A stretch of DNA of 64,000 nucleotides from an uncultured Bacilli bacterium. Lineage in GTDB: Bacteria; Bacillota_I; Bacilli_A; RFN20; CAG-826. Positions 2,900 through 20,656 of the stretch are shown here, piece by piece. The position numbers and the translations under genes are program-made. Within the stretch, counting starts at the first letter, position 1; each line of letters opens with the position of its first letter. Below the pieces are notes generated by a model that saw nothing but the letters and a program-made list of their open reading frames with translations, was not told the DNA's origin and ran no database searches. The stretch is from contig CAKPJO010000001.1 in the NCBI GenBank assembly GCA_934162685.1, positions 30,602 to 94,601 on the forward strand. The letters run 5' to 3'.

Positions 2900-3421
2900 A
2901 TGGTAGAAGTAAAACATTATAAACATAATAAAGTTGCTCAATTCTTATATAATTATTGTTTAAAAGGAAGTAAATTCTTATATAAATATCCTGTTATTTA
3001 TTGGATATTACAATTTACTTGGGGTATCATCTATACTATCATTGGTTCTATTATTGGTTTCTTTGCTTGGATGATAGGCGGCGAAGGATCTTCTTTCCAT
3101 CGTGGATATGTTATTATGATAGGTGATAACTGGGGAGGATTAGAATTAGGTCTGGGTTGTCTCGTTGCTTATAATATGGGCGACGAATGGACTGACCATT
3201 GTAAAAAACACGAAATGGGGCATTGTTATCAAAACGCTTTATTAGGACCATTTGCAATATTTCTTGTAACTATTCCTAGTGCTATCAGATATTGGTATCA
3301 AAGAATTAGAACTAAAAAAGGATTACCTAATAAAGATTATGAAAGTATTTGGTTTGAAGGATGTGCCACTGAAATTGGTGAAACCTTATATGGTTATTTA
3401 AAAGAAGAAAAAACAAAATAG
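2900..3421 (+). CDS. membrane protein with an HExxH (HEMGH) motif, putative metalloprotease-like
   Basis: Several hydrophobic helices and HEMGH at the end of a predicted helix. Start overlaps the previous stop. Confidence 0.45.
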   Translation: MVEVKHYKHNKVAQFLYNYCLKGSKFLYKYPVIYWILQFTWGIIYTIIGSIIGFFAWMIGGEGSSFHRGYVIMIGDNWGGLELGLGCLVAYNMGDEWTDHCKKHEMGHCYQNALLGPFAIFLVTIPSAIRYWYQRIRTKKGLPNKDYESIWFEGCATEIGETLYGYLKEEKTK

Positions 3422-3554
3422 GATAAATTCAAAGCTTCTGCTTTGTATTTATATATTAAGTTGATGCGCGATGTTATGAATGATAGCATTGACGACATCA
3501 GATTATCGAAAGATAAGCAAGGAGATTGGACTTAGTGTCCTATATCACACTTGG

Positions 3555-3590
3555 AAAATAGCAGCTCAGAAGGTTGCTATTTTTTATTTC
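3555..3590 (+). terminator. intrinsic terminator (AATAGCA...TGCTATT plus T5)
   Basis: 7-bp stem hairpin followed by TTTTTT, downstream of the 2900..3421 gene. Confidence 0.5.
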
Positions 3591-3633
3591 AGTTGTCTAC
3601 AAATTGAAGTCAACTGAAAATATGAAAAATTAC

Positions 3634-3680
3634 TTGACAATGGGGAATATTTCTATATAATAAATATGTAAAAAGTACCC
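3634..3680 (+). promoter_or_regulatory. sigma-A type promoter P1 (TTGACA-16-TATAAT followed by AAATATGTAA)
   Basis: Near-consensus -35/-10; member of the repeated promoter family. Confidence 0.55.
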
Positions 3681-3720
3681 CAAATTACTTTTTTTGGTAA
3701 AAACGTTTTAGAAAAATACT

Positions 3721-6700
3721 TTGACCCCTGTTGGGGTGTGTTATAGAAAGGTGGAGATTTTAATGTATTGTAGTTTACATAATCATACAATGTATTCAAA
3801 TTTAAAATTATTAGATAGTATCAATAGAATTCCAGATATGATAAATAAAGCTATAGAATACGGTTTTAACGGTTTAGCTATCACGGACCATGAAATATTA
3901 TCAGGCCATGTTGAAGCTTTAGAATATGCTGATAAGATTAAAAAAGATCATCCTGATTTTAAAGTAATACTAGGGAATGAAATTTATTTAATTAAAGAAA
4001 AAGAATATAAACAACCAGAAACAAAATTCTGGCATTTCTTATTAATTGCAAAAGATTTAACAGGATACATGCAAATTCGTAAATTAAGTTCTAAAGCCTG
4101 GGATCGTATGTATGTATCTAAAGGACAAAAAAGAACTCCCACTTTTTATGAAGACTTTGAAGCAATAATTGGTAATGATAAAGGTCATATTATAATGTCA
4201 ACAGCCTGTTTAGGTTCATATTTAAACGATTGTTTTATTAGACACGATTTAGAAGAAATTAAATTTTATATAAATTGGATGGTTAAAACTGTTGGAAAAG
4301 AAAATGCTTTTTTAGAAATACAAGATAGTGACTCTATTGAACAACAAAATTATAATAAATTTATTTTAAAATTAGGAAAACAATTAAACTTAAAAGTAAT
4401 TGTAACTCAAGATGCTCATTATCTGAATAAAGAAGATTTACAAATTGAAAAAACCTTTTTAAACAGTAAACAAGAAGGAGATCGAGAGGTTGACGCTTTC
4501 TATAAATATACTTATATGAAACCAGAAAGTGAAATCAAACAAATTCTTTCTTATCTTCCTGTAGAAGATGTTCAACAAGCTATTGATAATACTCAAATAA
4601 TTTATCGAATGATACAACCATATGATATAAGAAAAGATACAATTATTCCACAAAGAAAACTTCCTTCCTTTCAATTAAAACATTTATTAAAAGAATGGTA
4701 TGAACAAGAAGAAAACATAAAAGCATTTGCTGAAAGTTTGTGGGACCAAGATAGATTTTTATTGCATTTAATTGAGCAAGGAATAGAAGAAAAAAATTTT
4801 AAAGTAACTAAATTAGAAGCAGATAGAATTAATACTGAACTTGGTGTTTTAAAATATATTACTGAAAGAGTGCATCAACCTATGAGTGCGTACTTAAATT
4901 TGGTGCAAGAAATTATTAATTTAATGTGGGAAGTATCGTTTATCGGCGTCAGCAGAGGATGTTTTACAGAAGATGCCCAAATTTTAATGGGAGACGGAAG
5001 TTATAAATCAATTAAAGATGTACAAGAAGGAGACTTAGTTTATACTCATTTAGGAAGAATAAAGAAAGTTTTACAAACTCATCAATATAACGTAAATGAA
5101 CGATTATATACAATCAAAGTGCGCGGACGTCCTGCATTTACTTGTACTAATAATCATCAAATATTTGGTAGCCATCAAGGTTCTTGTAAAGCACCTGGTT
5201 CTAAAAATGTTTATTGTTCAGGAAAGTGTAAAAGGTTCAGTACTTGTCCTTATGCCACTGGAGAAGCAATTCAAGCTCATTGGATTGAGGCACAAAATTT
5301 AAAAAAGGGAGATTTTGTTACAACTCCAAAATTTAATTTTGCAAATCCTACAAGTAATTTAATAGATTTAATGAAATATATCCCTGAATCTAGTGCCGTA
5401 GGAGAAAACCAATTTTATTATAAGCGTAAAGATGATCGTTATTGTTCTGGAATAGTGAAAAAATTTATAGCCAATCGCTATTCACAATGGACACCTGGTC
5501 TTGCTCGTCTTGTTGGTTATTTTATTGGAAATGGATGGACAAGAAAAAAAGATGATAAGTCAAATTCAATAATTCAGTTTGGCCTTGCCTTTCATAGTGA
5601 GGCAACAGAAAAAATTAATGATTGTGTTAATTTAATTGAAAACGAATTACATTTATCTTATAAAATCAGACCTTCTTCTCGTCGAAAGGTAGTACAAATT
5701 ATAGTAGGAAACAAGCCTTGGGCTAACTTTTTTGCGGCAGAGTGCGGAATAGGAAGTCATAATAAAAAAATTCCTTATAAAATCTTCACAGATTTAACAT
5801 TAGCTAAAGAATGCATGAGAGGGTTAATTCTCACTGATGGTAGTACAGATTTAAAAAGACGTCGTTTTAAATATAGCACAATTTCTCCTATGCTTCAAAA
5901 ACAAGTTTTTTATTTGCTTAATTTATTAAAATATAATTCTTTTATGAATGAATTTGATAAGAGGCAAGAAAATTGGGAGCCAGAAAGAACAAATTGTTTA
6001 TCAGGAACTCAACTTTTGAAATTTTGCGAAGAATTTAATTTAGGAACACCTATGACTTCACAACTTGCATATACTCGTCAAGATTTTGAAGAAGATGAAC
6101 AATATTATTATAATAAAATTGAAAATATAGAGACAAAAAACTTTCAAGGAATAGTTTACGATTTAACAGTAGAAGATGACACTTCTTATATTGTGAATGG
6201 GTGTGCTGTACATAATAGCGCAATGTCATTCTTAATTAATTATTTAATTGGAATTGTGCAAGTTAATCCAATTCCTTACGATGTTCCTTATTGGAGATTT
6301 ATGAATACTGCAAGTATTCCAACGTTAACGCCAGAAGAAATTAAAGCAGGTAAAAAACTTTCAATAGCGGCAACGATGCCTGATGTTGATATAGATATTA
6401 GTCCTACAAAAGCAAATGAGGTTATGGATATTATGAGACAACATTATGGAGAAGATAATATTCTTAATACACTAACTTATAAAAAAGAATCTTTAAAAGC
6501 TGCTTTAAATAGTTGCGGTAGAGGATTAGGATTATTACCCGAAGAAACTCATTATTTATCAAGTTTGGTTCCTACTTCTAGAGGTCACGTTTATTCTTTA
6601 CAAGAATGTGAAGAAGGTGACGAAGAAAAGGGCTTTGAAGCTCATCCAGAGGTAATTCAAGCTATTCAAAAATATCCTGGTTTATATGAGGCCGTTAAAA

Positions 6701-7479
6701 AGATAGAAGGTTTAATTTCAGGTTCTGGAATTCACGCTTCTGCCGTTTACTTCTTTCCTGATGGTTATATTAATTGTTGTTCTATGATGCGAGCCCCAAA
6801 CGGTACCCGTATAACAGGATTTGATTATAGAGCGGTTGATGCTTGTTCGGGATTAAAAATGGACTTTTTATATACCGATTGTCAAACTAAATTAATGAAA
6901 ACAATGGACTTATTATTAAAATATAATCAAATTAAATGGCAAGGTTCTTTAAGGGCTACTTATAATAAATATTTACATCCAGATGTATTAGATTATAATA
7001 ATCCTGAAATGTGGAAAAGAATGCAAGAAGGACAAATATCTAATTTGTTCCAATTTGATAGTTTACAAGGGGCCATTTGTATTAAAAGAACTCGTCCTGA
7101 GAATGTAAAACAATTAGGAGCAGCAAATGCTGTTATGAGATTAATGAGTTCTGATGGTGGAGAAACTCCATTAGATAGATATGTACGTTTCAGAAATGAT
7201 ATAAGCGAATGGTATAAAGAAATGGATGAATATGGTTTAACAAAACACGAGCAGTCTCTTCTTGAAAGATATTTATTACCTAAGTTTGGCAATTCTGTAG
7301 AACAAGAAGATATGATGCAAATTGTTCAAGATCCTGAAATTTCTAACTTTACATTAGGAGAAAGCAACAAGTTTCGTAAGGTGGTGTCCAAAAAGAAACT
7401 TAAAGAAATTGAAAAATATAAGAAATTATTCTTTGAAAAAAATAAAGATCCAGAGGTTTCAGAAGAACTAGATTTTTAG
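3721..7479 (+). CDS. dnaE: DNA polymerase III alpha (DnaE-like) N-terminal cistron containing an intein; PHP domain plus palm/fingers
   Basis: PHP motifs (HNHTMYS, ITDHE). Catalytic MPDVDIDIS aligns with DnaE MPDFDVDF. LKMDFL, NLFQFDS and MMQIVQ blocks match DnaE. Ends at the position where DnaE continues with ...KFAGYGFNKSHS. Confidence 0.8.
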   Translation: MTPVGVCYRKVEILMYCSLHNHTMYSNLKLLDSINRIPDMINKAIEYGFNGLAITDHEILSGHVEALEYADKIKKDHPDFKVILGNEIYLIKEKEYKQPETKFWHFLLIAKDLTGYMQIRKLSSKAWDRMYVSKGQKRTPTFYEDFEAIIGNDKGHIIMSTACLGSYLNDCFIRHDLEEIKFYINWMVKTVGKENAFLEIQDSDSIEQQNYNKFILKLGKQLNLKVIVTQDAHYLNKEDLQIEKTFLNSKQEGDREVDAFYKYTYMKPESEIKQILSYLPVEDVQQAIDNTQIIYRMIQPYDIRKDTIIPQRKLPSFQLKHLLKEWYEQEENIKAFAESLWDQDRFLLHLIEQGIEEKNFKVTKLEADRINTELGVLKYITERVHQPMSAYLNLVQEIINLMWEVSFIGVSRGCFTEDAQILMGDGSYKSIKDVQEGDLVYTHLGRIKKVLQTHQYNVNERLYTIKVRGRPAFTCTNNHQIFGSHQGSCKAPGSKNVYCSGKCKRFSTCPYATGEAIQAHWIEAQNLKKGDFVTTPKFNFANPTSNLIDLMKYIPESSAVGENQFYYKRKDDRYCSGIVKKFIANRYSQWTPGLARLVGYFIGNGWTRKKDDKSNSIIQFGLAFHSEATEKINDCVNLIENELHLSYKIRPSSRRKVVQIIVGNKPWANFFAAECGIGSHNKKIPYKIFTDLTLAKECMRGLILTDGSTDLKRRRFKYSTISPMLQKQVFYLLNLLKYNSFMNEFDKRQENWEPERTNCLSGTQLLKFCEEFNLGTPMTSQLAYTRQDFEEDEQYYYNKIENIETKNFQGIVYDLTVEDDTSYIVNGCAVHNSAMSFLINYLIGIVQVNPIPYDVPYWRFMNTASIPTLTPEEIKAGKKLSIAATMPDVDIDISPTKANEVMDIMRQHYGEDNILNTLTYKKESLKAALNSCGRGLGLLPEETHYLSSLVPTSRGHVYSLQECEEGDEEKGFEAHPEVIQAIQKYPGLYEAVKKIEGLISGSGIHASAVYFFPDGYINCCSMMRAPNGTRITGFDYRAVDACSGLKMDFLYTDCQTKLMKTMDLLLKYNQIKWQGSLRATYNKYLHPDVLDYNNPEMWKRMQEGQISNLFQFDSLQGAICIKRTRPENVKQLGAANAVMRLMSSDGGETPLDRYVRFRNDISEWYKEMDEYGLTKHEQSLLERYLLPKFGNSVEQEDMMQIVQDPEISNFTLGESNKFRKVVSKKKLKEIEKYKKLFFEKNKDPEVSEELDF
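4960..6216 (+). mobile_element. intein (419 aa) with a LAGLIDADG homing endonuclease domain, inserted in the GRGS palm motif of DnaE
   Basis: Starts CFTEDAQILMGDGS (block A) and ends VHN followed by S (+1). LAGLIDADG blocks LVGYFIGNGW and GLILTDGS. Flanking VSRG|...|SAMSFLINYLIG matches DnaE GRGS-AAGSLVAY. Confidence 0.8.
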
Positions 7480-7508
7480 AAGGGAAAATATTTCCTTCTT
7501 TTTTTATT
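7477..7508 (+). terminator. intrinsic terminator after dnaE part 1
   Basis: AGAAGGGAAAatatTTTCCTTCT hairpin plus T8; the T-run runs into the -35 TTGACT. Confidence 0.6.
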
Positions 7509-7550
7509 GACTTTTAAAAACATTTGTGTATAATAAATAGTGTAAAAAGA
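7507..7550 (+). promoter_or_regulatory. sigma-A type promoter P2 (TTGACT-18-TATAAT-AAATAGTGTAA)
   Basis: Consensus hexamers plus the conserved downstream box AAATAGTGTAA. Confidence 0.6.
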
Positions 7551-7563
7551 AAGGAACCAAATT

Positions 7564-7731
7564 ATGAAAACTATTAGAATATTTGTTACACTTAAACAAA
7601 ATGATATAATTAATATTCCTGATGACGCATCAGATAGTGAAATTGATGCAATAGTTGATAATTATGCTAGTGAGTTAGCAGAAAACGCGGGAATTCAAAA
7701 GTATGAAGTTGAGTGGCAAGAAGATTATTAA
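7564..7731 (+). CDS. small acidic hypothetical protein (55 aa)
   Basis: ATG with AAAGGA RBS immediately after P2. Below the ORF-track cutoff. Confidence 0.4.
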   Translation: MKTIRIFVTLKQNDIINIPDDASDSEIDAIVDNYASELAENAGIQKYEVEWQEDY

Positions 7732-7744
7732 GGAGAGTTAAATT

Positions 7745-7927
7745 ATGAGTTCATCAAAAAAATATATTATAAAAATATATTCAGAACAACCTTTAAATGG
7801 AGTTTGGAAAGGTTATATTAAAGTTGATATTGATGTAAAATGTTCTGAAGGAATTGAAAGAAAAACAAGAATATTCTCAAAAAATGAATGGGAAGAAATT
7901 AAAAAATTTGGATATTATTTAGGATAA
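7745..7927 (+). CDS. hypothetical protein
   Basis: RBS GGAGAG, compact array of early ORFs. Confidence 0.5.
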   Translation: MSSSKKYIIKIYSEQPLNGVWKGYIKVDIDVKCSEGIERKTRIFSKNEWEEIKKFGYYLG

Positions 7928-7944
7928 AGAAAGGAAACAACATT

Positions 7945-8316
7945 ATGAAAAAAGAAGAATTATTTAAAGCGGAAACATTTGATTATATTTGTAAACTAAT
8001 TAAAGAAAAATTAACAAAATCTATGAAAGGTAATAAACAAGTAAGTATTTTAGAAATCAAAGCATATAATTTATCAACAAAATCCAATGATTTTGAAAAA
8101 GAATTACAAATTAAATTTTCTATAAATCTAAATCCAGAAATTTTTTGTTCAATGGTATATATTGATGCTGTTTGGTACTATGATTTATTTGATGCAAAAG
8201 AATTTGCTTCAATTGTTGCGAGCAATGTTTTAAAAAAATCAGTTAAAAATATAAGCATTGCTGAAAAAGACAACGATAGTAATATATTTAGTGTTTATAC
8301 ACGAAATGATAAATAA
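7945..8316 (+). CDS. hypothetical protein
   Basis: RBS AAGGAAAC 8 nt upstream. Confidence 0.5.
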   Translation: MKKEELFKAETFDYICKLIKEKLTKSMKGNKQVSILEIKAYNLSTKSNDFEKELQIKFSINLNPEIFCSMVYIDAVWYYDLFDAKEFASIVASNVLKKSVKNISIAEKDNDSNIFSVYTRNDK

Positions 8317-8339
8317 ATAGAAAAACGAGGTTACATATT

Positions 8340-8546
8340 ATGAATAGAAAAAGTATATTATTAATTAGCTTAACAATTATTGCTATGCTAGGTATAGTTG
8401 TAGGAATTGCATTTATTTGTAGTAAATTCATCATCCGTCCATACAATACCATTGTTACTATGATTTTAAGTTATTTAACAGGATCTTGCGGGAACGCGGT
8501 TATTAATTATATTCTTGAGAAAGAAGGTTGTCAAAATGAAGAATAA
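8340..8546 (+). CDS. small membrane protein (paralog A)
   Basis: Two TM helices. Paralogous to 8515..8736 (SILLIxLTI...GNxVxNxIxxKEG). Confidence 0.5.
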   Translation: MNRKSILLISLTIIAMLGIVVGIAFICSKFIIRPYNTIVTMILSYLTGSCGNAVINYILEKEGCQNEE

Positions 8547-8736
8547 AAGAAGTATTTTATTGATTATCTTAACAATTGTAGTTATGTTTCTATTAGGAGC
8601 ATTAATTGTATGGGGAAGTTGTTCTATTCTTCTTTACCCTTGGAATGTTATATCAACTATGTGTTTAAGTCTTGTTGTTGGTTTAGCAGGTAATAGAGTG
8701 CTAAATATTATTATTGATAAAGAAGGGAAAAACTAA
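8515..8736 (+). CDS. small membrane protein (paralog B, tandem duplicate)
   Basis: Same architecture as 8340..8546; start overlaps the previous gene. Confidence 0.5.
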   Translation: MRKKVVKMKNKRSILLIILTIVVMFLLGALIVWGSCSILLYPWNVISTMCLSLVVGLAGNRVLNIIIDKEGKN

Positions 8737-8737
8737 A

Positions 8738-9010
8738 ATGATACATAAAAAGGAAAAAGAAGAAATTGAAAATTTGTTAGAAGATACCTTTGTTGGCAGT
8801 TCTGACGCATTAGAATGGTTATCTGAAAAAGGATTTGTTGAAGCTGACAAATGTTATTATTATTGCTATTCTGATAAAAATGGTAATTACATTGGTAATG
8901 ATAGTGATGATGATCCTTATGACATATTAGAAATACTTTTAAAAGATATTGATTATGATGAATTTATGACAAAATTTAATGAAGAATTCGGAGATGAAGA
9001 TAATGGATAA
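8738..9010 (+). CDS. acidic hypothetical protein
   Basis: ATG at 8738 with AAGGGA RBS. The ORF-track start 8714 is less likely. Confidence 0.45.
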   Translation: MIHKKEKEEIENLLEDTFVGSSDALEWLSEKGFVEADKCYYYCYSDKNGNYIGNDSDDDPYDILEILLKDIDYDEFMTKFNEEFGDEDNG

Positions 9011-9245
9011 TATAAATTGGAAAGAAAAATATATGGATGAACATATTAAAGTTCAAGATTTAGAGTCTAAAGTTGATGTTTATGAAAATATTACAATTCC
9101 TAGATTGAAAAAAGAAAAAATAAAAGTATTAAAAAAAGTTGTAAAGCAATTAAAAGAATGTACATCATTCTTTATGACGGTTGATGAATCCGATGTAGAT
9201 GATGTGATTGAATATTGTGAGAGTATTATAGAAAAGGGAGAATAA
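8979..9245 (+). CDS. hypothetical protein
   Basis: Overlaps the previous stop; the start may be the internal ATG at 9003. Confidence 0.4.
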   Translation: MKNSEMKIMDNINWKEKYMDEHIKVQDLESKVDVYENITIPRLKKEKIKVLKKVVKQLKECTSFFMTVDESDVDDVIEYCESIIEKGE

Positions 9246-9248
9246 ATT

Positions 9249-9422
9249 ATGAAAAATATTATAGTATATACAACAGTATATCATAAAAACTTTATTAAAG
9301 TTGAAGATGATGTTTATGAAGACGAAGATAAACTTCAAGAAAAAGCTAGAGAAATTGCTAATAAAATTGCAGGCAATAATGATTATGATTATGAATATGA
9401 ATTAGATGAAGAAGAAGAATAA
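9249..9422 (+). CDS. small acidic hypothetical protein (57 aa)
   Basis: RBS GGGAGAATAAATT-ATG. Below the ORF-track cutoff. Confidence 0.4.
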   Translation: MKNIIVYTTVYHKNFIKVEDDVYEDEDKLQEKAREIANKIAGNNDYDYEYELDEEEE

Positions 9423-9425
9423 GAG

Positions 9426-9620
9426 GTGATAGAAATGAACAAATGTGATTTTTGTAATTACTATGACCCATTTCAAAATAAATGTGGCTGTGCTTATTCT
9501 CCTAAAAATTGTACAGAAGCTATTAAAGCTTACTCACAAGTATTAATGAGTCAAAACAAGAATACTAAAACTAAAAACGTTAATATTAATAAAAACAATA
9601 ATAAAACGAAAGGAAAATAG
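9426..9620 (+). CDS. small Cys-rich protein (CDFCNYY...CGC...C)
   Basis: RBS GAGGTG; Cys cluster suggests metal binding. Confidence 0.45.
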   Translation: MIEMNKCDFCNYYDPFQNKCGCAYSPKNCTEAIKAYSQVLMSQNKNTKTKNVNINKNNNKTKGK

Positions 9621-9622
9621 TC

Positions 9623-10183
9623 ATGAGTAAAATAAAAATTGATCAATATACAAAAATGTTATTAGATGACATCATTTTACAAAGTAAGAAAGATGACGAT
9701 CCTGTTAAAAGCTTTTGTTTAGAATTTGTGTTTTATAATCAAGAAGAATGCTGGATTACTACAACCTATCAAAGTGGAAAAATAGACGAGGAAAAATATT
9801 TGGACAAGACTATGAACCAATTGGCTCTAGATCAATGTCCACTCGAAGGAAATCATATTGTTCTTCCAGCTGATTATGAGAGTGTTATCGATCCAAACAT
9901 TGTTGAAAATTTTCCAGGCTGGTCGAAAACGTATACGTTAGATTTAAGTAATATAGGAATTTTAACTGATAAAGAAAAAGAATATTTAAAAGCTGTAATT
10001 GAACCATATAGATTACTGGTCTCAGATATAAGTAAAATAGTTGGTTGGAATCATGATCCAGAACAAATTTTTGTTTATTTAGATTGTGGAGATCCAATTA
10101 CCTTTCCAATCATTTTACCAGAATTAAAATTTTCAGGAATGGAATTAAATAAGAATTATACTTTAGAAGATTTAGGAATATAA
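9623..10183 (+). CDS. hypothetical protein
   Basis: Coupled start (ATAGTCATG). Confidence 0.5.
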   Translation: MSKIKIDQYTKMLLDDIILQSKKDDDPVKSFCLEFVFYNQEECWITTTYQSGKIDEEKYLDKTMNQLALDQCPLEGNHIVLPADYESVIDPNIVENFPGWSKTYTLDLSNIGILTDKEKEYLKAVIEPYRLLVSDISKIVGWNHDPEQIFVYLDCGDPITFPIILPELKFSGMELNKNYTLEDLGI

Positions 10184-10196
10184 AGGAGAAAAGAAA

Positions 10197-11081
10197 ATGA
10201 AAATTAGTAATAAAACTTATAATGTATGTAGTCACTTTATACATTTATTTGAATCATTTGATTATAAAATAGGAAGTATTATTCTACGTAGGAATGAAGA
10301 CAGAGAAACAAATTTTTATGAAATTAGTTTATCTTTTTCGGGCAAAGATAATTCTAATAAACAATTTCAAACATCTGTATCAATGATTGATGAGGAAATG
10401 CATACAATATTATGTAAAAGGAGCAGAGACTTTTTGATATGTGATGATGTAAAAAGTTTACGTTTTCATTTTAATAATGTCCCATCTTTGTCTGATATTG
10501 AGAAGTATCTTTTAACACAGCTCTTTAATTATTATCATATAACAGAGGGAACGATTATGAAAAAAAGTAATCATCTTATCATTAAAACTAAAAATCCTTT
10601 TGAAGGAATAGAAACTGACATTGAAATAAATTTGTCTTTAAAGCCATTAAAAGACAATAATTTTAAAGAGCTGGAAGAAGAATATGAATATTTTATTGAG
10701 GATTTAGATTTAGGAGAAGATACAAGAAAAGCAGCATTGTTAAATCAAACGTTGTCAGCGTGCGATTGTATTTATCAAAATGGAAGAGTTCTCTATAAAG
10801 GCAATTTTAAAATTTCATTTAGTGAATTTTTAGATAAAGATAATGTTTTTATTCATTGTAAAACAAGAGATGACTTTGATTTCCTTATGGATAAATTAAT
10901 GGAAGCAACTCCTGGTAATATATTCTATAATGTTAATAAAGGCATCGAGGGTGTTTGGTATGATTATGGTGAAGATAGCTGTGTTAAAAATGATGGAACA
11001 GGGATGAAATACGAATATTGCAAAGCTTCAAAAAACAATTATGCTATTTATGAATTTGACGAATTAGATTTTAGTAAATAA
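10197..11081 (+). CDS. hypothetical protein with a C-terminal (A)IHCxT...YEFDELDF domain (family member 1)
   Basis: RBS AAGGAG. C-terminal ~90 aa is similar to 11098, 11395 and the 25823 C-terminus. Confidence 0.55.
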   Translation: MKISNKTYNVCSHFIHLFESFDYKIGSIILRRNEDRETNFYEISLSFSGKDNSNKQFQTSVSMIDEEMHTILCKRSRDFLICDDVKSLRFHFNNVPSLSDIEKYLLTQLFNYYHITEGTIMKKSNHLIIKTKNPFEGIETDIEINLSLKPLKDNNFKELEEEYEYFIEDLDLGEDTRKAALLNQTLSACDCIYQNGRVLYKGNFKISFSEFLDKDNVFIHCKTRDDFDFLMDKLMEATPGNIFYNVNKGIEGVWYDYGEDSCVKNDGTGMKYEYCKASKNNYAIYEFDELDFSK

Positions 11082-11097
11082 TAAGGGCAATAAAAAT

Positions 11098-11379
11098 ATG
11101 AAAATTAAATTAACTGAATTTTGGAATAGTAAAGAAAATCTTGCTATTCATTGCAATACGAAAGAAAAAGCAAATGAATTATTAAAAGCTTTTGATAGGC
11201 TTGGTAAGAAATGGAGTAATGGTATGAGTTATTTGGATGTTGATTATTATACTCTTGATTATGGTCTTTACTATAGGAACACTTGTTATTCAAATCATAA
11301 TAAATTTCATGGATATTCAAATTATAAATCACATGACTATACAATTTATGAATTCGAAGATGTTGATTTAAAAAATTAA
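11098..11379 (+). CDS. small protein of the AIHC(D/N)T...YEF(D/E)DVDL family (member 2)
   Basis: LAIHCNTKEKANELL...LGKKWSNG...TCY...IYEFEDVDL. Confidence 0.55.
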   Translation: MKIKLTEFWNSKENLAIHCNTKEKANELLKAFDRLGKKWSNGMSYLDVDYYTLDYGLYYRNTCYSNHNKFHGYSNYKSHDYTIYEFEDVDLKN

Positions 11380-11394
11380 GAAGGAAAAATCAAA

Positions 11395-11691
11395 ATGGAA
11401 AAATTAAATTCTAAAAAGAAAATTACATTAACAAAATTTTTAGACGATTATGATAGAGATTTGGCTATTCACTGTGATACTGAAATACAGGCAAGAATAT
11501 TACAAAAAACAATTCGTAAATCGCTCAAAAAAAGATGGAATATTAAAATATCTGATCAAAAAGATACTTTTTGTAGATGTTATAAACGAGACACCTGCTA
11601 TGACAATGATAATTGCTGTGGATCTCGTGATTGGTACGAAACGATGGGTTATTTAATCTACGAATTTGATGAAGTTGATTTAGATAAATAA
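11395..11691 (+). CDS. small protein of the AIHCDT...YEFDEVDL family (member 3)
   Basis: LAIHCDTEIQARIL...KKRWN...TCY...IYEFDEVDL. Confidence 0.55.
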   Translation: MEKLNSKKKITLTKFLDDYDRDLAIHCDTEIQARILQKTIRKSLKKRWNIKISDQKDTFCRCYKRDTCYDNDNCCGSRDWYETMGYLIYEFDEVDLDK

Positions 11692-11747
11692 AAGACCTCT
11701 TTTATTTAGTGGAACTTGTGCGTAAAAAGCATAAGTTCTTTTTTTAC

Positions 11748-11790
11748 TTGACATTTACAAATATTTATATATAATTTAAGTAAGTAAGAA
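11748..11790 (+). promoter_or_regulatory. sigma-A type promoter P3 (TTGACA-16-TATAAT)
   Basis: Consensus hexamers upstream of the 11804 ORF, homing endonuclease and dnaE part 2 cassette. Confidence 0.55.
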
Positions 11791-11803
11791 AGGGTGATAT
11801 CAA

Positions 11804-12025
11804 ATGAAAAAGATTATTATTATTTGTAACGACAAAGTTATTTCAGAACACGAAACATCAGATGTATATTATGATGCAATGATGAAAGAATGTGAAAGAC
11901 AACTAAATGAAGGAACTCTAGATAGTAGAGTGTTTGAGTTCAATGAAAAAGAACAAGCTAAAATCACTAAATATATAGTGAACAATCTCATATATAAATT
12001 AATAGATAAGAAAGAAGTTGAATAG
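11804..12025 (+). CDS. hypothetical protein
   Basis: RBS AAAGGGTG. Confidence 0.45.
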   Translation: MKKIIIICNDKVISEHETSDVYYDAMMKECERQLNEGTLDSRVFEFNEKEQAKITKYIVNNLIYKLIDKKEVE

Positions 12026-13031
12026 AATGAATTTTGAAAATAGAGAATATAATAAACCTTCGCAAATTGAATATGAAGGTACTTTAACTAAAAATAGGAA
12101 TCAAAGGCCTACTTGTGACCAAAAGTTTTTAGACTGGTGTGTGGCTAATGCAGAACGTTTTAGCTCTTATTATACTATGGCTAAAGCATTAGGACTTGAT
12201 GGCAGGGCTTTTCAACGTTTAATAGAAGATTATAACATTACATTAACATTTGATAGTAAAGCTGCTCATACTCCTAAATTATATCAAGATTATGACTGGT
12301 TATATAATCAAATTGTTACTTTAAATAAGTCTCGTAAGCAAGTAGCTGAAGAAAATGGCTGGACAGTTAGAGTTTTAGAAAAATGGATGGGCATTTTAGG
12401 AATTAATAGAAGAACATACCAAGATTTAAAACAAATGTCTGATAAGCAAAGAGATTTAATTAAATTCTCATTATTAGGTGACGGATGTGTTTCTGATACA
12501 GGATTTTTTATTGTGTCTCATAGTGAAAAGCAAAAAGATTATTTATATTGGAAATATGAAATGTTGAAAGATCTTTGCTCGCATGAACCGACACGATATG
12601 ATGAGAGTGTTAAAATAATTAACGGAAAAGAAGTTAATTGCGAACCATATTATAGATTTAATACTAGAAAATTAAAGGAATTGTTTAATCTTAGAGAAAT
12701 GCCAATAGAACAAATTGTTAATGATTTAGATGAATTTGGTTTGTCAATTTGGATGTTGGACGATGCTAGCCGAGATGCTTCTTGGAAGTTATGTATAGCC
12801 GCTTATCCTGAAGAAACTAGAACATTTATTGTAAATTATTTTAAGGATAAAGGTTTTTTATCTGCTAAAGTAAGGCTATATGATACAAGATATGTGGAAT
12901 TTAATGCTGACGACAGTAGAAAAATAGATGCTATAATTTTGCGTAACATTCCTCACAATTTAGACATTATACAATATAAAATTATAAATAATAGTAGAAT
13001 TAAATCACCAAGGAGGGGAAATAATGGCTAG
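12018..13031 (+). CDS. free-standing LAGLIDADG homing endonuclease with an N-terminal DNA-binding region
   Basis: Two LAGLIDADG-type motifs (LLGDGCVSD, WMLDDASRD). Located exactly at the junction that splits dnaE; overlaps both neighbours. Confidence 0.7.
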   Translation: MNRMNFENREYNKPSQIEYEGTLTKNRNQRPTCDQKFLDWCVANAERFSSYYTMAKALGLDGRAFQRLIEDYNITLTFDSKAAHTPKLYQDYDWLYNQIVTLNKSRKQVAEENGWTVRVLEKWMGILGINRRTYQDLKQMSDKQRDLIKFSLLGDGCVSDTGFFIVSHSEKQKDYLYWKYEMLKDLCSHEPTRYDESVKIINGKEVNCEPYYRFNTRKLKELFNLREMPIEQIVNDLDEFGLSIWMLDDASRDASWKLCIAAYPEETRTFIVNYFKDKGFLSAKVRLYDTRYVEFNADDSRKIDAIILRNIPHNLDIIQYKIINNSRIKSPRRGNNG

Positions 13032-14583
13032 GCGTCTTTTCCTAGATTATGTCTGGGGAAAATGCATTCAACCACAAGTAGGATACGCCTTTTCTTTGCC
13101 GCACGATATTAGTTATTCTATAGAAGCCGTCCAAGAAGCTAATTTAGCAACAAGATATAACCCTCTTTTTTGGGAATGTGCTTGCCTTTGTATCAACGCA
13201 GGAAATACGGAAACAGGATTTGAAGAAGACGATGATGAAGAGCAAGACGAGGAAGAAAAGAAAACTAAATCAGGAGCACCATCATATGGTAAAATTTCAA
13301 AAGCTTTAACCGATTGTAGGCTTCACGGTGTAAATATTGAATTTCCAAACATTAATACATCTCAAGCAGATTTCGTTCCTGATATTGAAAATAATAGTAT
13401 TTTATATAGTTTAAAGACTGTTACAAATGTGAGCGATGATTTATATTCACAAATCATTCAGAATAGACCTTATTCATCAATAGAAGATTTCTGTTCTAAA
13501 GTATCTGTTACACCAGCACAAATGTCCAGTTTAATTAAAGCTGGTTGCTTCAATTCTTTATATAAGATGTCAAGACGAGCAATTCTCTATGCTTATTTCA
13601 ATTATTTAGCAAATCAAGAAATAATCCTTAAAAAAACATTGAACTTATCTCATTTAAAGAAAGCTTTGTCTCTTGGTGAGAAATTTCCAGGTTATGAAGA
13701 TAAAATTCAATTATTATATTTTAAAGTATACATTGATAAAAATCAAAAATTAGATCCTAGTAAAGAGGCATTCTCACTTAATGCTTTATTAAATAAGAAA
13801 TGTTATAAACTCACGGAAGAATCTTGCATCAGCTTTTTCAATATGAAAGTTGCGCCTTCATTAGATTTAAGAAAAGGTGATTATGATTATTTAGATGGAC
13901 ACACAATATTATTAAAAGCATCAAGCTTTACAAAATTCTATGATGCTCAAATGAAAGAATTAACTGATTATCTAAATTCTGAACAAGGTAAATTAGTATT
14001 TCAAAAAATGGAAAAAGATGCTTTTATAAAAGATCTTATTGAAAAATACGCAGAAGGAACCGAAGCTGACTGGGATATGCAAACAATGAATTTTTATCAA
14101 TCTGAACACGCACTTGCTAGAATGTCCGAAATAAAGTATAACATTAAGAATTTTAATAAATTACCAGAAACGCCTATAACACGTAAGTATATAGGTAAAG
14201 ACGGAGAAGAAAAAGAGACAGCTGAAACTTGTGCAATATGTGGTACAGTTGTAGATGCTAATAATGTTAAACACGTGGTAAGTTTATTAACTAAGTATGG
14301 AGTGGTTAATGTTAAATTATTCTCACAAGCATATTCTAATTTTAGTCAAAAGATAAGTATTGTTGAAGATGCCGCCAAAAAGAAGAAAACAGTTTTAGAC
14401 GACTCTTGGTTTAAAAGAGGAACGAAATTAATTATTCACGGGTTCAGAAGAGAAAATATGTTTGTTGCTAAAACTGAATATGTTAATAAAGTTCCTAAAA
14501 TGGTAGGATTAATAGAAAGTTTAGATACAAACGGAAATGCTTCTATTAGATACACAAGAAAGAAGAAAATTAGTCAAGAATAA
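13024..14583 (+). CDS. dnaE: DNA polymerase III alpha (DnaE-like) C-terminal cistron; fingers/HhH/beta-binding region
   Basis: [32 protein letters not shown] aligns with DnaE [46 protein letters not shown] aligns with GLKILPPDINSG. Continues the alignment where 3721..7479 stops. Confidence 0.75.
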   Translation: [519 protein letters not shown]

Positions 14584-14600
14584 CACTTGACTTTTTCTTT
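14572..14600 (+). terminator. intrinsic terminator whose 3' arm is the -35 of P4
   Basis: AGTCAAGaataacaCTTGACT plus T5. Confidence 0.6.
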
Positions 14601-14625
14601 TATTTATATATAATATGGAATGTAT
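14587..14625 (+). promoter_or_regulatory. sigma-A type promoter P4 (TTGACT-16-TATAAT)
   Basis: Consensus hexamers, followed by GAAAGAAGG RBS of the helicase gene. Confidence 0.6.
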
Positions 14626-14643
14626 AGAAAGAAGGTATTTTAA

Positions 14644-17086: not shown

Positions 17087-17665
17087 ATGGATTATGTTAC
17101 ATCAGATTTACATTTTAGACACAATCGAATTATTATATTTGAAAGAACTCAATTTAAAACCGTTGAAGAACACGATCAATATATTATAGAACAATGGAAT
17201 TCAGTTATTCAAGATCACGATAGAGTATTTGTGTTAGGGGATCTTGGATTTAAGCCTTTTGCAGATTTAGGTAAACTTGTTAAGCAATTAAAAGGACATA
17301 AAATTTTAGTTAAAGGAAATCACGATCAAATGGTTGTGGGAGACGCAATTAATATGGGTTTTGAAATGATGTATGACCATCCTATTTATTATAATACACA
17401 CATAATATTATCTCACGAACCTGTAAAAGAAGCGTGGGATAATCCTTATGTTTATAATATTCACGGGCATTGTCATAACTTTCAAACTATTGACGCACCT
17501 AATTTTGTAAATGTTAATATTGCCACCACTGATTATAAGCCAATTCCTATGGCACAATTTGTATCTAAAGCTAATTTAAGATGTAAATCAAGAAAAGAAA
17601 AATGGGAAACCGAATGGTATTGTCCATATTTATTAAAAAAAGAGCAAGATAGTCGCAATAAGTGA
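17087..17665 (+). CDS. calcineurin-like metallophosphoesterase
   Basis: Motifs DLHF, VFVLGDLGF, VKGNHD, IHGHCH. Confidence 0.7.
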   Translation: MDYVTSDLHFRHNRIIIFERTQFKTVEEHDQYIIEQWNSVIQDHDRVFVLGDLGFKPFADLGKLVKQLKGHKILVKGNHDQMVVGDAINMGFEMMYDHPIYYNTHIILSHEPVKEAWDNPYVYNIHGHCHNFQTIDAPNFVNVNIATTDYKPIPMAQFVSKANLRCKSRKEKWETEWYCPYLLKKEQDSRNK

Positions 17666-17685
17666 AAAAATTGCGACTTTTTCTT
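17651..17685 (+). terminator. intrinsic terminator (AGTCGCAA...TTGCGACT plus T5)
   Basis: 8-bp stem hairpin then T-run, immediately followed by P5. Confidence 0.6.
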
Positions 17686-17693
17686 CTTTTTCT

Positions 17694-17740
17694 ATTGACT
17701 TTTAAATATATTCTAGTATTATTAATAATGTAAAAGGGAG
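17694..17740 (+). promoter_or_regulatory. sigma-A type promoter P5 (TTGACT; weaker -10; TAATAATGTAAAAGGGAGG)
   Basis: -35 consensus and downstream AATGTAA box. Confidence 0.45.
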
Positions 17741-17748
17741 GTATTATT

Positions 17749-18030
17749 ATGTTACCAATAACAGAAGTTAAACGCATTGTCAAAAAAGAAATTGAAAGGT
17801 TAGGTTACGGATGTAAAGAAATAGAATCTAAGTCAACAACATCAGTATATTATAAAATCTATTTTGGTGAAGCAAATATGATTTTTAGAATTGCTGACCA
17901 TAAAGGAAAACAAGATATTATTACTTTACGTATTGATAAAAAAACCACACCTGAAACGATTAAACAATTTGCTAAAAATCGTATTAAAGATTTAGCATGG
18001 CGTAAGACTAAAATGACACTTGGCTTGTAA
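17749..18030 (+). CDS. hypothetical basic protein
   Basis: RBS AAAGGGAGG. Confidence 0.5.
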   Translation: MLPITEVKRIVKKEIERLGYGCKEIESKSTTSVYYKIYFGEANMIFRIADHKGKQDIITLRIDKKTTPETIKQFAKNRIKDLAWRKTKMTLGL

Positions 18031-18045
18031 AGGAGGTATAGCAAA

Positions 18046-19296: not shown

Positions 19297-19300
19297 AACT

Positions 19301-20485: not shown

Positions 20486-20497
20486 AAACAGTTAGAA

Positions 20498-20540
20498 AAT
20501 GCTAGAAAATTTTCAAAAATAAAAAAACTCTAGCATTTTC
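20498..20540 (+). terminator. hairpin terminator (AATGCTAGA...TCTAGCATT)
   Basis: 9-bp stem with a long loop and a short T-run. Confidence 0.4.
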
Positions 20541-20599
20541 ACATTATTTTAATAAAACTATGACAAAAATAATATATTTATTATTTTTATAAAAAACAC

Positions 20600-20645
20600 T
20601 TGATTTTAAAAATTATTTTGCTATAATAAATAGTGAAGAAAGGAG
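20600..20645 (+). promoter_or_regulatory. sigma-A type promoter P6 (TTGATT-17-TATAAT-AAATAGTGAAG)
   Basis: Family consensus. Confidence 0.55.
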
Positions 20646-20656
20646 ATTAAAATTTT

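What the first reader, a model, noticed from the sequence alone, without database searches (positions are those of the whole stretch)
3721..14583. DnaE-type DNA polymerase gene split into two cistrons by a 5.5 kb insertion of small ORFs and a homing endonuclease gene
ORF 3721..7479 aligns with DnaE from the PHP domain through the ...YQEQVMQIAQ... block and stops (KKLFFEKNKDPEVSEELDF*). ORF 13024..14583 restarts at the next DnaE residues (...[32 protein letters not shown] = [23 protein letters not shown], then [12 protein letters not shown] = GLKILPPDINSG). The catalytic subunit of the replicase is therefore encoded as two polypeptides. Between them are a terminator, promoter P2, about 15 tiny ORFs (including a 3-member AIHCDT...YEFDDVDL family), promoter P3 and a free-standing LAGLIDADG endonuclease gene that overlaps the start of part 2. 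This looks like a homing-endonuclease-mediated gene split that then accumulated an accessory gene cassette inside an essential gene.
Basis: partly seen in the sequence, partly recalled or inferred. Interest (0 to 1): 0.8.

Follow-up and report, generated by a model that had tools for sequence, protein, structure and literature searches.

The report
Phage replicative polymerase gene in pieces
An uncultured gut phage encodes its DnaE-type replicative DNA polymerase as two separate genes 5.5 kb apart, with a mobile endonuclease gene and a cassette of small genes in between; many related phages share the same break point, so this is a new example of a known way that selfish endonucleases fracture essential phage genes.

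Summary
Part 1 (true start ATG 3763, ends 7479) and part 2 (13024..14583) align end to end, with no overlap or gap, to the unsplit YorL polymerase of Bacillus phage SPbeta and to Taq and E. coli Pol III alpha.

No intron and no split-intein halves exist at the break, so two polypeptides must assemble non-covalently. Both halves are under strong purifying selection.

The split is not private to this phage. 26 further loci break at the same residue (part 2 always starts MAR...). The gap between the halves ranges from -8 nt to 6.8 kb. It holds nothing, the LAGLIDADG homing endonuclease gene (HEG) alone, giant leucine-rich-repeat genes, a helicase, or the small-ORF cassette. Equally close relatives, and all cultured relatives checked, are unsplit.

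The endonuclease gene is mobile. A 94%-identical genome lacks exactly this gene, and a gene-conversion patch spans it and the first ~65 codons of part 2. Part 1 itself has been swapped for a 48%-identical allele relative to an otherwise 96-100% identical phage.

This is a "genes-in-pieces" case, like nrdA/mobE of phage Aeh1, in a new host gene and with an added cargo slot. Whether the endonuclease caused the split or invaded an existing one is unresolved.

The parts
3552..3661 (+). Terminator-like hairpin (3552-3586) followed by a consensus sigma-70-type promoter (TTGACA-16-TATAAT, 3634-3661) upstream of part 1
   Evidence: sequence
3763..7479 (+). dnaE/yorL-type polymerase part 1: PHP, palm (catalytic PDVDID), thumb and most of the fingers. 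Interrupted in frame by an intein. Probable start is ATG 3763 (RBS GGTGGAG); the mechanical ORF starts at TTG 3721.
   Evidence: Pfam; BLASTP to YorL; start codon; pN 0.15 against saturated pS versus L003
4960..6216 (+). Intein, 419 aa: Cys1 (C414), TNNH block B, LAGLIDADG_3 endonuclease domain, terminal HN, +1 Ser. Inserted in the GVSRG|S motif.
   Evidence: Pfam Intein_splicing, Hom_end_hint and LAGLIDADG_3; boundaries; YorL alignment skips exactly this segment; same site occupied in L002, L005, L007 and empty in L003, L009, L012
7478..7534 (+).
7564..11691 (+). Cassette of 13 small same-strand ORFs (55-294 aa) with no recognised domains. Includes two transmembrane paralogs (8340-8546, 8515-8736) and three copies of an '...IYEFDxVDL' domain (C-terminus of 10197-11081, 11098-11379, 11395-11691). 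Found only in the closest relatives L005 and L002.
11711..11775 (+). It heads the unit ORF73, HEG, part 2.
11804..12025 (+). 73-aa ORF whose stop lies 1 nt before the HEG ATG. Conserved (92-93% aa) in L005, L006 and L002.
12027..13031 (+). Free-standing LAGLIDADG_2 homing endonuclease gene, 334 aa. Both motifs are intact (FSLLGDGC, SIWMLDDA). Its 3' end carries the RBS AAGGAGG of part 2 and overlaps the part 2 ATG by 8 nt.
   Evidence: Pfam; PHROG; alignment with the L005 and L003 HEGs; omega 0.13-0.24; precisely absent from L002
12118..13218 (+). Divergent (58-82% nt) patch relative to L005, inside an otherwise 93-100% identical region. It spans most of the HEG and the first ~65 codons of part 2. 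Interpreted as a gene-conversion tract.
   Evidence: alignment; pS 0.54 for part 2 codons 1-69 against 0.16 for codons 70-519
13024..14583 (+). Polymerase part 2, 519 aa: last fingers helices with the GY(A/S)FS..H motif, HhH (HHH_6) domain, OB-like beta domain and C-terminus
   Evidence: Pfam; YorL 829-1302; AF2 and Foldseek; omega 0.02-0.04
14572..14614 (+). Terminator-like hairpin and promoter TTGACT-16-TATAAT between part 2 and the RecD2/YrrC-like helicase gene (14644-17064)

Best explanation
The window is the replication module of an uncultured phage from gut metagenomes, distantly related to SPbeta. Related contigs are about 130-145 kb. Its C-family (DnaE/YorL-type) replicative polymerase is a genuine 'gene in pieces'.

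Part 1 (PHP, palm, thumb, most of the fingers) is made as a precursor that must first splice out a 419-aa intein. Part 2 holds the remaining fingers helices with the GYxFS..H motif, the HhH domain and the OB-like domain. It is translated from its own RBS and ATG, in a separate transcription unit 5.5 kb downstream.

The break lies in a loop between two fingers helices. This corresponds to E. coli alpha L740|A741, 21 residues upstream of the cyanobacterial DnaE split-intein site in this protein's numbering and 14 in E. coli numbering. The two chains are therefore expected to reconstitute the domain non-covalently (inferred, not shown).

The break point is inherited and shared by a clade of gut phages. 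The most likely origin is insertion of a free-standing LAGLIDADG homing endonuclease gene into the coding sequence. The insert would supply the upstream stop and the downstream RBS and ATG.

Later history differs by lineage. In some, the endonuclease gene was lost, leaving two tightly coupled cistrons. In others, the space between the halves became an ordinary intergenic slot that took up cargo, namely the small-ORF cassette here, a helicase, or giant BspA-type leucine-rich-repeat (LRR) genes. The endonuclease is still mobile and drives gene conversion around the junction.
For: Shown:
- Coverage of YorL, Taq and E. coli alpha is seamless and non-overlapping.
- 94 of the best 120 homologues of part 2 are stand-alone proteins of about 325-535 aa carrying HHH_6 only.
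- 26 further loci have the same break, with part 2 starting MAR[KRQL] in one register.
- The gaps form a series: -8 to +4 nt with an RBS inside the end of part 1 (L014-L035, L091); 62 nt with a promoter and RBS (L007); the HEG alone, 1014 nt (L003/L004); 4.4-6.8 kb of cargo (L009, L012, L002, L005, window).
- SPbeta, PMBT24, VRE9_3 and many IMG/VR loci are unsplit.
- Rfam finds no intron at E <= 1 in 3000-15000, yet the same tool finds group I introns elsewhere in dnaE of L055 and L077.
- Only 2 and 5 unaligned residues lie at the seam, which leaves no room for split-intein halves.
- omega is 0.02-0.04 for part 2 and 0.009 for part 1.
- The HEG is polymorphic between genomes that are 92-96% identical in the flanking DNA, with exact edges. 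The HEG is intact, with omega 0.13-0.24.
- A conversion patch spans 12118-13218.
- In an AlphaFold2 model, the seam falls in a low-confidence loop (408-423) between helices 395-407 and 424-438.
- Each unit is bracketed by a terminator-plus-promoter module.

Precedent: HEG-fractured nrdA (Aeh1/mobE), gp43 (phage 25) and T4 topoisomerase reconstitute active enzymes (PMC2988022). The Dassa model has the invading HEG supply the stop codon and the initiator Met (PMC2677866).
Against: - Only three of about ten split lineages carry the HEG, so it may be a later invader of a pre-existing split.
- In neighbour-joining (NJ) trees, split and fused forms are interleaved. For example, split L007 is sister to fused L011/L022 in both half-trees. 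This needs either several independent splits at one residue or re-fusions. The trees are crude (NJ, long branches, no support values).
- Physical association and activity of the two chains, intein splicing, promoter use and HEG cleavage are all untested.
- All split loci come from metagenomes or MAGs. No cultured phage with this break was found.
- The rest of the ~138 kb genome was not searched for a second polymerase.
Confidence: 0.65

Rival explanations
1. The gene was already split by small mutations that created a stop, an RBS and an ATG in a tolerant loop. The LAGLIDADG HEG later invaded the new intergenic site, as free-standing HEGs do between genes. The cargo genes arrived the same way.
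For: - Most split loci lack the HEG and have only -8 to +62 nt between the halves.
- The fused form L010 reads ...NAG-VARKEF..., one codon away from the split forms' MARKEF.
- The same ambiguity is discussed for gene 43 of Aeromonas phages 25 and 44RR (PMC2988022).
- The HEG is demonstrably mobile and so could be recent.
Against: - HEG-only loci (L003/L004) sit in a different sub-clade from window/L005, yet hold a 55-56%-identical HEG at the identical position. This suggests long residence.
- Other lineages carry independent HEG-containing interruptions within ~25 residues of the same site (L104, L110, L117, L119, L123, L126). HEG invasion of this coding stretch is therefore recurrent.
Confidence: 0.27
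2. The two ORFs are rejoined covalently. Possible routes are a group I or II intron that contains the 5.5 kb, protein trans-splicing by split-intein halves (as in cyanobacterial DnaE or the 'fractured genes' of Dassa et al.), or translational bypass.
For: - LAGLIDADG_2 genes are often intron-encoded.
- Relatives do carry group I introns in dnaE.
- Part 1 carries a real intein.
- DnaE loci with a split intein plus a HEG are known (PMC2677866).
Against: - No Rfam intron at E <= 1 in 3000-15000, nor in L003 at gathering threshold.
- Relatives have gaps of -8 to +62 nt, too short for an intron.
- Part 2 has a conserved RBS and ATG in every split locus.
- Internal terminators and promoters are present.
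- Only 2 and 5 unaligned residues at the seam, against at least ~35-100 needed for intein halves.
Confidence: 0.03
3. Assembly or sequencing artefact, or a decaying pseudogene.
For: The window has no provenance, and all related split loci are metagenomic.
Against: - The same architecture was assembled independently in several samples (L005 Hadza gut, L006, L002 IMG/VR), with 92-96% identity in the flanking DNA.
- Dozens of other split loci have different junction sequences.
- omega is 0.009-0.04 on both halves.
- Catalytic and PHP motifs are intact.
Confidence: 0.01

Closest known systems
HEG-fractured 'genes in pieces' of T4-like phages: nrdA split by mobE in Aeromonas phage Aeh1, gene 43 (PolB) split in phages 25 and 44RR, T4 topoisomerase genes 39/60 with mobA (PMC2988022; Friedrich et al. 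2007 as cited there)
   Same: - An essential phage enzyme that is contiguous in relatives is encoded as two colinear cistrons.
- A free-standing HEG sits between them.
- No intron or intein heals the break.
- The halves are expected to reassemble.
- As with phage 44RR, some relatives keep the split without the HEG.
   Different: - The host gene is a C-family (DnaE/YorL) polymerase.
- The HEG is of the LAGLIDADG_2 type rather than HNH or GIY-YIG.
- The inter-cistron gap has grown to 4.4-6.8 kb, with its own terminators, promoters and unrelated cargo.
- The same polymerase also carries an intein.
- Activity of the reconstituted enzyme is untested here.
'Fractured genes' of Dassa et al. 2009 (PMC2677866), including three metagenomic DnaE loci
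   Same: - Gene halves stay in the original order and locus.
- A free-standing HEG lies between them.
- The HEG 3' end overlaps the start of the downstream half.
- Found mainly in phage.
   Different: Those loci carry split-intein halves on both sides of the HEG and rejoin by trans-splicing. Here the seam has no intein halves (tested, not met).
Cyanobacterial split dnaE (Ssp/Npu DnaE split intein; junction AEY|CFN)
   Same: Natural split of the Pol III alpha catalytic subunit in the same short stretch of the fingers domain. The cyanobacterial junction corresponds to Y21|A22 of part 2.
   Different: - The break here is 21 residues upstream (14 in E. coli numbering).
- No intein halves.
- The halves are in one locus rather than far apart.
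- The product stays as two chains.
Split 'minimal' Pol III alpha of group 2.2 jumbo phages (Iyer et al. 2021, PMC7824862)
   Same: A phage C-family polymerase catalytic module encoded as two stand-alone proteins without inteins.
   Different: - That version is a minimal core without PHP, HhH or OB domains.
- It is split between the NTP-binding and Mg/template-binding subdomains.
- Its genes are distant from each other.
- It accompanies a family B replicase.
- No HEG is implicated.
SPbeta YorL and other phage DnaE-like polymerases (PMBT24, Enterococcus VRE9_3, Ldl1)
   Same: Homologous full-length polymerase (33-42% identity) in a similar gene neighbourhood. The window itself shows a PD-(D/E)XK nuclease upstream and a RecD2-like helicase downstream; relatives L003, L007 and L009 also show a DnaB-like helicase upstream.
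   Different: These cultured relatives are single ORFs of ~1280-1345 aa.

Membership tests
C-family DNA polymerase alpha subunit (DnaE/YorL type) | N-terminal PHP domain with the HxH metal motif | tested here: met
   PF02811 8e-25, aa 19-203; 'HNHT' at the start
C-family DNA polymerase alpha subunit (DnaE/YorL type) | Pol-beta-like palm with catalytic aspartates (E. coli D401/D403/D555) | tested here: met
   PF07733 2.5e-30. 'PDVDIDI' is aligned to YorL 'PDIDIDT'. 'GLKMDFL' is matched to E. coli 'PDFDVDF' / 'KFDFLG' from memory only.
C-family DNA polymerase alpha subunit (DnaE/YorL type) | Fingers, HhH and OB domains in the canonical order | tested here: met
   PF17657 in part 1 and PF14579 in part 2. 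The AF2 model of the concatenated halves matches Taq, Mtb and E. coli alpha over ~880-910 alignment columns (Foldseek E 1e-21 to 1e-18), and its C-terminal beta domain matches OB folds.
HEG-fractured gene without intein (nrdA/mobE type) | The gene is contiguous in relatives, and the two ORFs cover it colinearly with no overlap or loss | tested here: met
HEG-fractured gene without intein (nrdA/mobE type) | A free-standing homing endonuclease ORF lies between the halves | tested here: met
   LAGLIDADG_2 54 bits (cut-off 25), both motifs intact, abuts part 2. It is the only insert in L003/L004.
HEG-fractured gene without intein (nrdA/mobE type) | No intron and no intein halves at the break | tested here: met
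HEG-fractured gene without intein (nrdA/mobE type) | The halves reassemble into an active enzyme | not testable with these tools
   Only indirect support: omega 0.009-0.04 on both halves, and the seam lies in a loop between helices.
HEG-fractured gene without intein (nrdA/mobE type) | The HEG is an active nuclease that cuts HEG-less alleles near its insertion site | not testable with these tools
   Indirect: presence/absence polymorphism with exact edges, and a flanking conversion patch.
Fractured gene sensu Dassa 2009 / cyanobacterial split DnaE (trans-splicing) | Split-intein N and C fragments fused to the two gene halves | tested here: not met
   Only 2 residues after the last aligned residue of part 1 and 5 before the first aligned residue of part 2. 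No Hint or Intein Pfam hit in part 2 or at the part 1 C-terminus.
Group I intron with internal HEG | Catalytic intron RNA core flanking or overlapping the HEG, with an exon 2 that has no start signals of its own | tested here: not met
   No RF00028 hit at E <= 1. Positive controls in L055 and L077. Part 2 has a conserved RBS and ATG.
Class 1 intein with LAGLIDADG endonuclease (element inside part 1) | Cys/Ser1, block B TxxH, C-terminal HN, +1 Ser/Cys/Thr, Hint fold, in-frame insertion at a conserved site | tested here: met
   C414, TNNH, HN831-832, S833. Pfam Intein_splicing 7.4e-11, Hom_end_hint 2e-06 and Hint 0.00097 (both below Pfam's curated cut-offs), LAGLIDADG_3 8.9e-07. The YorL alignment resumes exactly after it. 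Splicing itself was not tested.
LAGLIDADG_2 homing endonucleases | Two LAGLIDADG motifs, each with a conserved acidic residue, in one chain | tested here: met
   FSLLGDGC and SIWMLDDA are invariant in the three HEG alleles. PF03161 2.5e-14. No solved structure was found by sequence.

The most novel reading that the evidence does not exclude
Splitting has turned the replicase into two exchangeable modules. Between the window and a Hadza-gut contig (L005) the flanks are 96-100% identical. Yet almost the whole of part 1, from codon ~10 to 6 codons before the stop and including a different intein, is replaced by an allele only ~48% identical in protein. Part 2 stays 96% identical except for its first ~55 residues. 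Those residues have been converted to the sequence type that goes with the new part 1.

If both phages are viable, halves from lineages about 50% diverged can form a working polymerase, and the N-terminal helices of part 2 co-vary with part 1. The inter-cistron gap would also be a recurrent landing pad for cargo (small-ORF cassettes, a helicase, 1400-2000-aa BspA-type LRR proteins) placed inside an essential gene, where it is hard to lose by simple deletion.
Probability: 0.3. Interest if true: 0.7.

Novelty: new variant of a known kind. Interest (0 to 1): 0.55.

Why it matters
- It adds the bacterial-type (C-family) replicative polymerase to the short list of essential phage enzymes that work as HEG-fractured, non-spliced pieces.
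- It supplies a natural series of states in one clade: fused; split plus HEG; split with coupled cistrons; split with multi-kb cargo. With this series, the order of events in gene fracture, and its reversibility, can be tested by phylogeny.
- The break lies a few residues from the site used by the cyanobacterial DnaE split intein. Other phage lineages carry independent HEG interruptions in the same ~25-residue stretch. This marks a hot spot for mobile-element invasion and a tolerated break point that could guide engineered split Pol III enzymes.
- The allelic swap of the catalytic half between near-identical phages would be a clear case of module shuffling inside one enzyme.

Tried and rejected
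- Megablast of the 10.9 kb region against 50,697 phage records: no match, so no cultured close relative.
- Rfam at E <= 1 over 3000-15000: only a spurious snoRNA hit. The intron explanation is rejected.
- Pfam and PHROGs on the cassette ORFs: nothing except phrog_3458 (unknown function) for 7745-7927. The function of the cassette stays unknown.
- PDB sequence search with the HEG: no hit.
- tRNA scan of the window: none.
- Host: the genome-contig scan gives only bins labelled Clostridium sp. CAG:343, uncultured Clostridia and the like, for contigs that are probably the phages themselves. The host is not established.
- I considered whether the AATGGCTAG stop/start overlap in HEG-less L018 is a footprint of HEG excision. 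It follows automatically from part 2 codons ATG-GCT-AGA, so it is not evidence.
- I considered the 650-870-aa homologues as a second split class. They start at the catalytic PD(I/V)D motif, and relatives have a group I intron there (L055). They are probably exon 2 products and not true splits.
- Literature searches for a non-intein split dnaE in SPbeta-like or gut phages found none. The library covers only open-access papers.

Full report

Yes. The ORF list shows 3721..7479 (1252 aa) and 13024..14583 (519 aa) on the + strand. Between them lie 14 smaller same-strand ORFs and a 337-aa ORF at 12018..13031.

Pfam places PHP, DNA_pol3_alpha and DNA_pol3_finger (to profile position 163 of 166) in the first ORF. 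It places HHH_6 in the second and LAGLIDADG_2 in 12018..13031.

BLASTP against the unsplit YorL polymerase of Bacillus phage SPbeta (fetched) gives:
- ORF1 20-414 = YorL 5-431
- ORF1 829-1250 = YorL 427-829
- ORF2 6-512 = YorL 829-1302

So the two ORFs tile the polymerase with no overlap and no loss. A phmmer alignment of the concatenated junction to Taq (2HPI) and E. coli (2HNH) Pol III alpha also runs straight through the seam. '...FFEKNKDPEVSEELDF' | '[27 protein letters not shown]' lies over E. coli '...VFAEGAEKNGINAEL | [20 protein letters not shown]'. By my count from that alignment, the break falls between E. coli L740 and A741.

- Part 1 most likely starts at ATG 3763, behind GGTGGAG.
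- The endonuclease gene most likely starts at ATG 12027, which is the start called in the relative L005.

**2.

ORF1 residues 414-832 (nt 4960-6216) are an intein. The evidence is Cys1, a TNNH block, a LAGLIDADG_3 endonuclease domain, terminal His-Asn and a +1 Ser. This is exactly the segment the YorL alignment skips. It sits in the conserved GVSRG|S motif.

The polymerase therefore needs one protein-splicing step in addition to the assembly of two chains.

**3. Is the break healed?**

No evidence for it, and good evidence against.
- Rfam at E <= 1 over 3000-15000 finds no intron. The same library does find group I introns at other positions of dnaE in relatives L055 and L077, so the method works in this phage group.
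- Only 2 residues follow the last aligned residue of part 1, and only 5 precede the first aligned residue of part 2. That leaves no room for split-intein halves.
- Part 2 has its own RBS (AAGGAGG) and ATG.
- The locus is cut into transcription units by four hairpin-plus-T-run / consensus-promoter modules: 3552-3586/3634-3661, 7478-7499/7507-7534, 11711-11739/11748-11775 and 14572-14592/14587-14614. These are pattern matches, not shown function.

**4. The split is shared, not private**

A search of 5.8 billion proteins with part 2 returned 183 relatives. Of the best 120, 94 are stand-alone proteins of roughly 325-535 aa that carry only HHH_6.

I fetched genomic context for 130 loci and classified the junction by script. 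Twenty-six loci besides the window are split at the same residue. Several are near-duplicates, and they represent about ten lineages. Part 2 always begins MAR[KRQL]xFLxY in one register.

The gap between the halves varies:

| Gap | Content | Loci |
|---|---|---|
| -8 to +4 nt | nothing; GGAGG-type RBS inside the end of part 1 (translational coupling) | L014-L020, L023-L030, L033, L035, L091 |
| 62 nt | TTGACT-17-CATAAT promoter plus RBS | L007/L008 |
| 1014 nt | the LAGLIDADG gene only | L003/L004 |
| 4.4 and 6.3 kb | one BspA-type LRR gene, 1435 and 2060 aa | L009, L012 |
| 6.8 kb | a ResIII/Helicase_C/Myb helicase plus small ORFs, no HEG | L002 |
| 5.3-5.5 kb | small-ORF cassette plus HEG | L005, window |

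Equally related IMG/VR loci are fused (L010, L011, L013, L021, L022, L031, L032, L034). So are all more distant ones, including SPbeta, Enterocloster phage PMBT24 and Enterococcus phage VRE9_3.

In neighbour-joining trees of either half, split and fused forms are interleaved. For example, split L007 is sister to fused L011/L022. These trees are crude, so I do not decide between repeated splitting and re-fusion.

**5. Both halves are functional genes**

- dN/dS is 0.023-0.039 for part 2 codons 70-519 (window against L005 and L002).
- dN/dS is 0.009 for the C-terminal segment of part 1 (the stretch after the intein), L005 against L002.
- The HEG has omega 0.13-0.24. Both of its LAGLIDADG motifs are invariant across three alleles that are 55-71% identical.

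**6. The endonuclease is mobile, and the locus is a mosaic**

L002 is 92-96% identical to the window on both sides but lacks exactly 12017-13113. It has 112 nt there instead.

Against L005, a 100-nt identity profile shows two features.

(a) Part 1 swap. Identity is 96-100% up to 3770, falls to 50-65% across the whole of part 1 (3771-7470), and returns to 96% from 7471.
- The breakpoints lie about 28 nt into the ORF and 6 codons before its stop.
- The catalytic half, with a different intein (37% identical), has therefore been replaced by an allele about 48% identical in protein. Part 2 remains 96% identical.
- The window's part 1 is closest to L003/L004 (77-82% aa).

(b) Conversion patch. A second divergent patch at 12118-13218 covers most of the HEG and the first ~65 codons of part 2.
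- In this patch the window's part 2 reads [27 protein letters not shown], the type seen in L003 and L014.
- L005 and L002 read NHTIPYSVIAVQEMNLATRWNPLYWSC.
- That matches the clade of the window's part 1.
- This is what co-conversion around a homing-endonuclease cut would leave, but the cut site itself is not known.

**7. How it most likely works**

Shown: two cistrons, an intein, no healing element, strong constraint on both halves, and a seam that lies in a predicted loop. In an AlphaFold2 model of the concatenated C-terminal part of part 1 plus part 2 (mean pLDDT 77), the seam at 420|421 lies in a low-confidence loop (408-423) between helices 395-407 and 424-438. The model's best structural matches are Taq, M. 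tuberculosis and E. coli Pol III alpha.

Inferred:
- After intein splicing, part 1 (PHP, palm, thumb, most of the fingers) and part 2 (last fingers helices with GYxFS..H, HhH, OB-like domain) associate by fragment complementation of the fingers domain. This was shown experimentally for split NrdA of Aeh1 and split gp43 of phage 25 (PMC2988022).
- Part 2 is expressed from the promoter at 11748, in one unit with ORF73 and the HEG.
- The cassette is expressed from the promoter at 7507.

**8. Origin**

The HEG-only loci, the 8-nt stop/start overlap between the HEG and part 2, and the RBS of part 2 lying inside the HEG 3' end all fit the model in which the invading HEG brings the upstream stop and the downstream Met (PMC2677866).

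Further support comes from other lineages. L104, L110, L119, L123, L126 and L117 (the isolate genome of Paenibacillus oleatilyticus SM69) carry 1.1-1.35 kb interruptions within about 25 residues of the same site, at or next to the GYxF|N motif. Most contain an endonuclease-like ORF: LAGLIDADG-like in L119, apparently HNH-like in L117, and unclassified ORFs of 288-317 aa in L104 and L123. L110 showed no HEG-like ORF, and the L126 gap was not examined. I did not establish whether these are introns or true splits.

That motif is also where the cyanobacterial DnaE split intein sits. Its native junction is AEY|CFN (PMC8484483). Mapping this onto GY|AF of part 2 is my inference. This stretch of conserved coding DNA is therefore a hot spot for mobile elements.

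Against a HEG origin: most split lineages have no HEG, so invasion of a pre-existing split (rival 1) stays a serious alternative.

**9. Comparison with what is known**

- The mechanism class, 'genes in pieces' made by a free-standing HEG without an intron or intein, is established for nrdA, gp43 and topoisomerase of T4-like phages.
- DnaE split with inteins is known in cyanobacteria and in three metagenomic 'fractured' loci.
- A different, minimal split Pol III alpha is described in jumbo phages (PMC7824862).
- I found no report of this break in YorL-type polymerases, but only open-access text was searched.

What is new here:
- the host gene;
- the graded series of states within one clade;
- growth of the inter-cistron gap into a 4-7 kb cargo slot with its own promoters;
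- replacement of one half of the enzyme between near-identical genomes.

**10. Verdict**

This is a real and moderately interesting feature. It is a new variant of a known kind, not a new principle.
- Confidence that the polymerase is truly made as two chains plus an intein: about 0.9.
- Confidence that the HEG created the split: about 0.6.

Noticed in passing
window 4960-6216: A 419-aa intein with a LAGLIDADG_3 endonuclease domain sits inside polymerase part 1, at the GVSRG|S motif. Inteins only 34-38% identical occupy the same site in L002, L005 and L007. The site is empty in L003, L009 and L012.
   Followed up: partly
window 3771-7470 versus L005 1001-4646: Nearly the whole part 1 ORF is only 50-65% nt identical to L005, while both flanks are 96-100% identical. 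The breakpoints lie about 28 nt inside the start and 6 codons before the stop. This is an allelic replacement of the catalytic half of the polymerase.
   Followed up: partly
window 26918-27184 (C-terminus of ORF 25823-27187): A fourth copy of the '...IYEFDxVDL' domain from the cassette is fused to the C-terminus of an RlaP-like (RNA-repair-pathway nucleotidyltransferase) protein. The function of the domain is unknown.
   Followed up: no
window 17087-29073: A run of RNA-repair-type genes lies downstream of the replication genes: phosphoesterase (17087-17665), RNA ligase with PHA02142 OB domain (18046-19296), class-V aminotransferase / cysteine-desulfurase-like (19301-20485), RlaP (25823-27187), and CCA-adding/PolyA_pol enzyme (27607-29073). 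No tRNA genes are present in the window.
   Followed up: no
L009 5616-9923; L012 3738-9920: In two related phages the only gene between the polymerase halves is a giant BspA-type leucine-rich-repeat protein (1435 and 2060 aa; 14 LRR_5 stretches in L012).
   Followed up: partly
L002 3295-5670: A 94%-identical relative carries a 791-aa ResIII/Helicase_C helicase with a Myb-like domain between the halves, in addition to part of the small-ORF cassette. It lacks the HEG.
   Followed up: partly
L055 8540-8868; L077 9087-9376: Group I introns (Rfam RF00028, 61-64 bits) interrupt dnaE of other relatives at different positions: near the catalytic PD(I/V)D motif, and about 216 residues after the intein site. 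This probably explains the 650-870-aa 'C-terminal' homologues in the protein search.
   Followed up: partly
L104, L110, L117, L119, L123, L126 (about 1.1-1.35 kb before position 10001; L110 2937-4216): Other lineages, including the isolate genome of Paenibacillus oleatilyticus SM69 (L117), have 1.1-1.35 kb interruptions of dnaE within about 25 residues of the window's break, at or next to the GYxF|N motif. L104, L117, L119 and L123 carry an endonuclease-like or unclassified ORF in the gap; L110 showed none and L126 was not examined. Whether these are introns or true splits was not resolved.
   Followed up: partly
window 8340-8546 and 8515-8736: Two overlapping small ORFs encode 41-44%-identical predicted membrane peptides (tandem paralogs) inside the cassette.
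   Followed up: no
window 3552-3661, 7478-7534, 11711-11775, 14572-14614: Four near-identical 'hairpin terminator followed at once by a consensus TTGAC(A/T)-16-TATAAT promoter' modules bracket each unit of the locus. Terminator-like sites number 13, against 2.7 expected from shuffles.
   Followed up: partly
window 46359-48833 (- strand): An 824-aa ORF with a PcfJ-like domain lies in the oppositely oriented half of the window.
   Followed up: no
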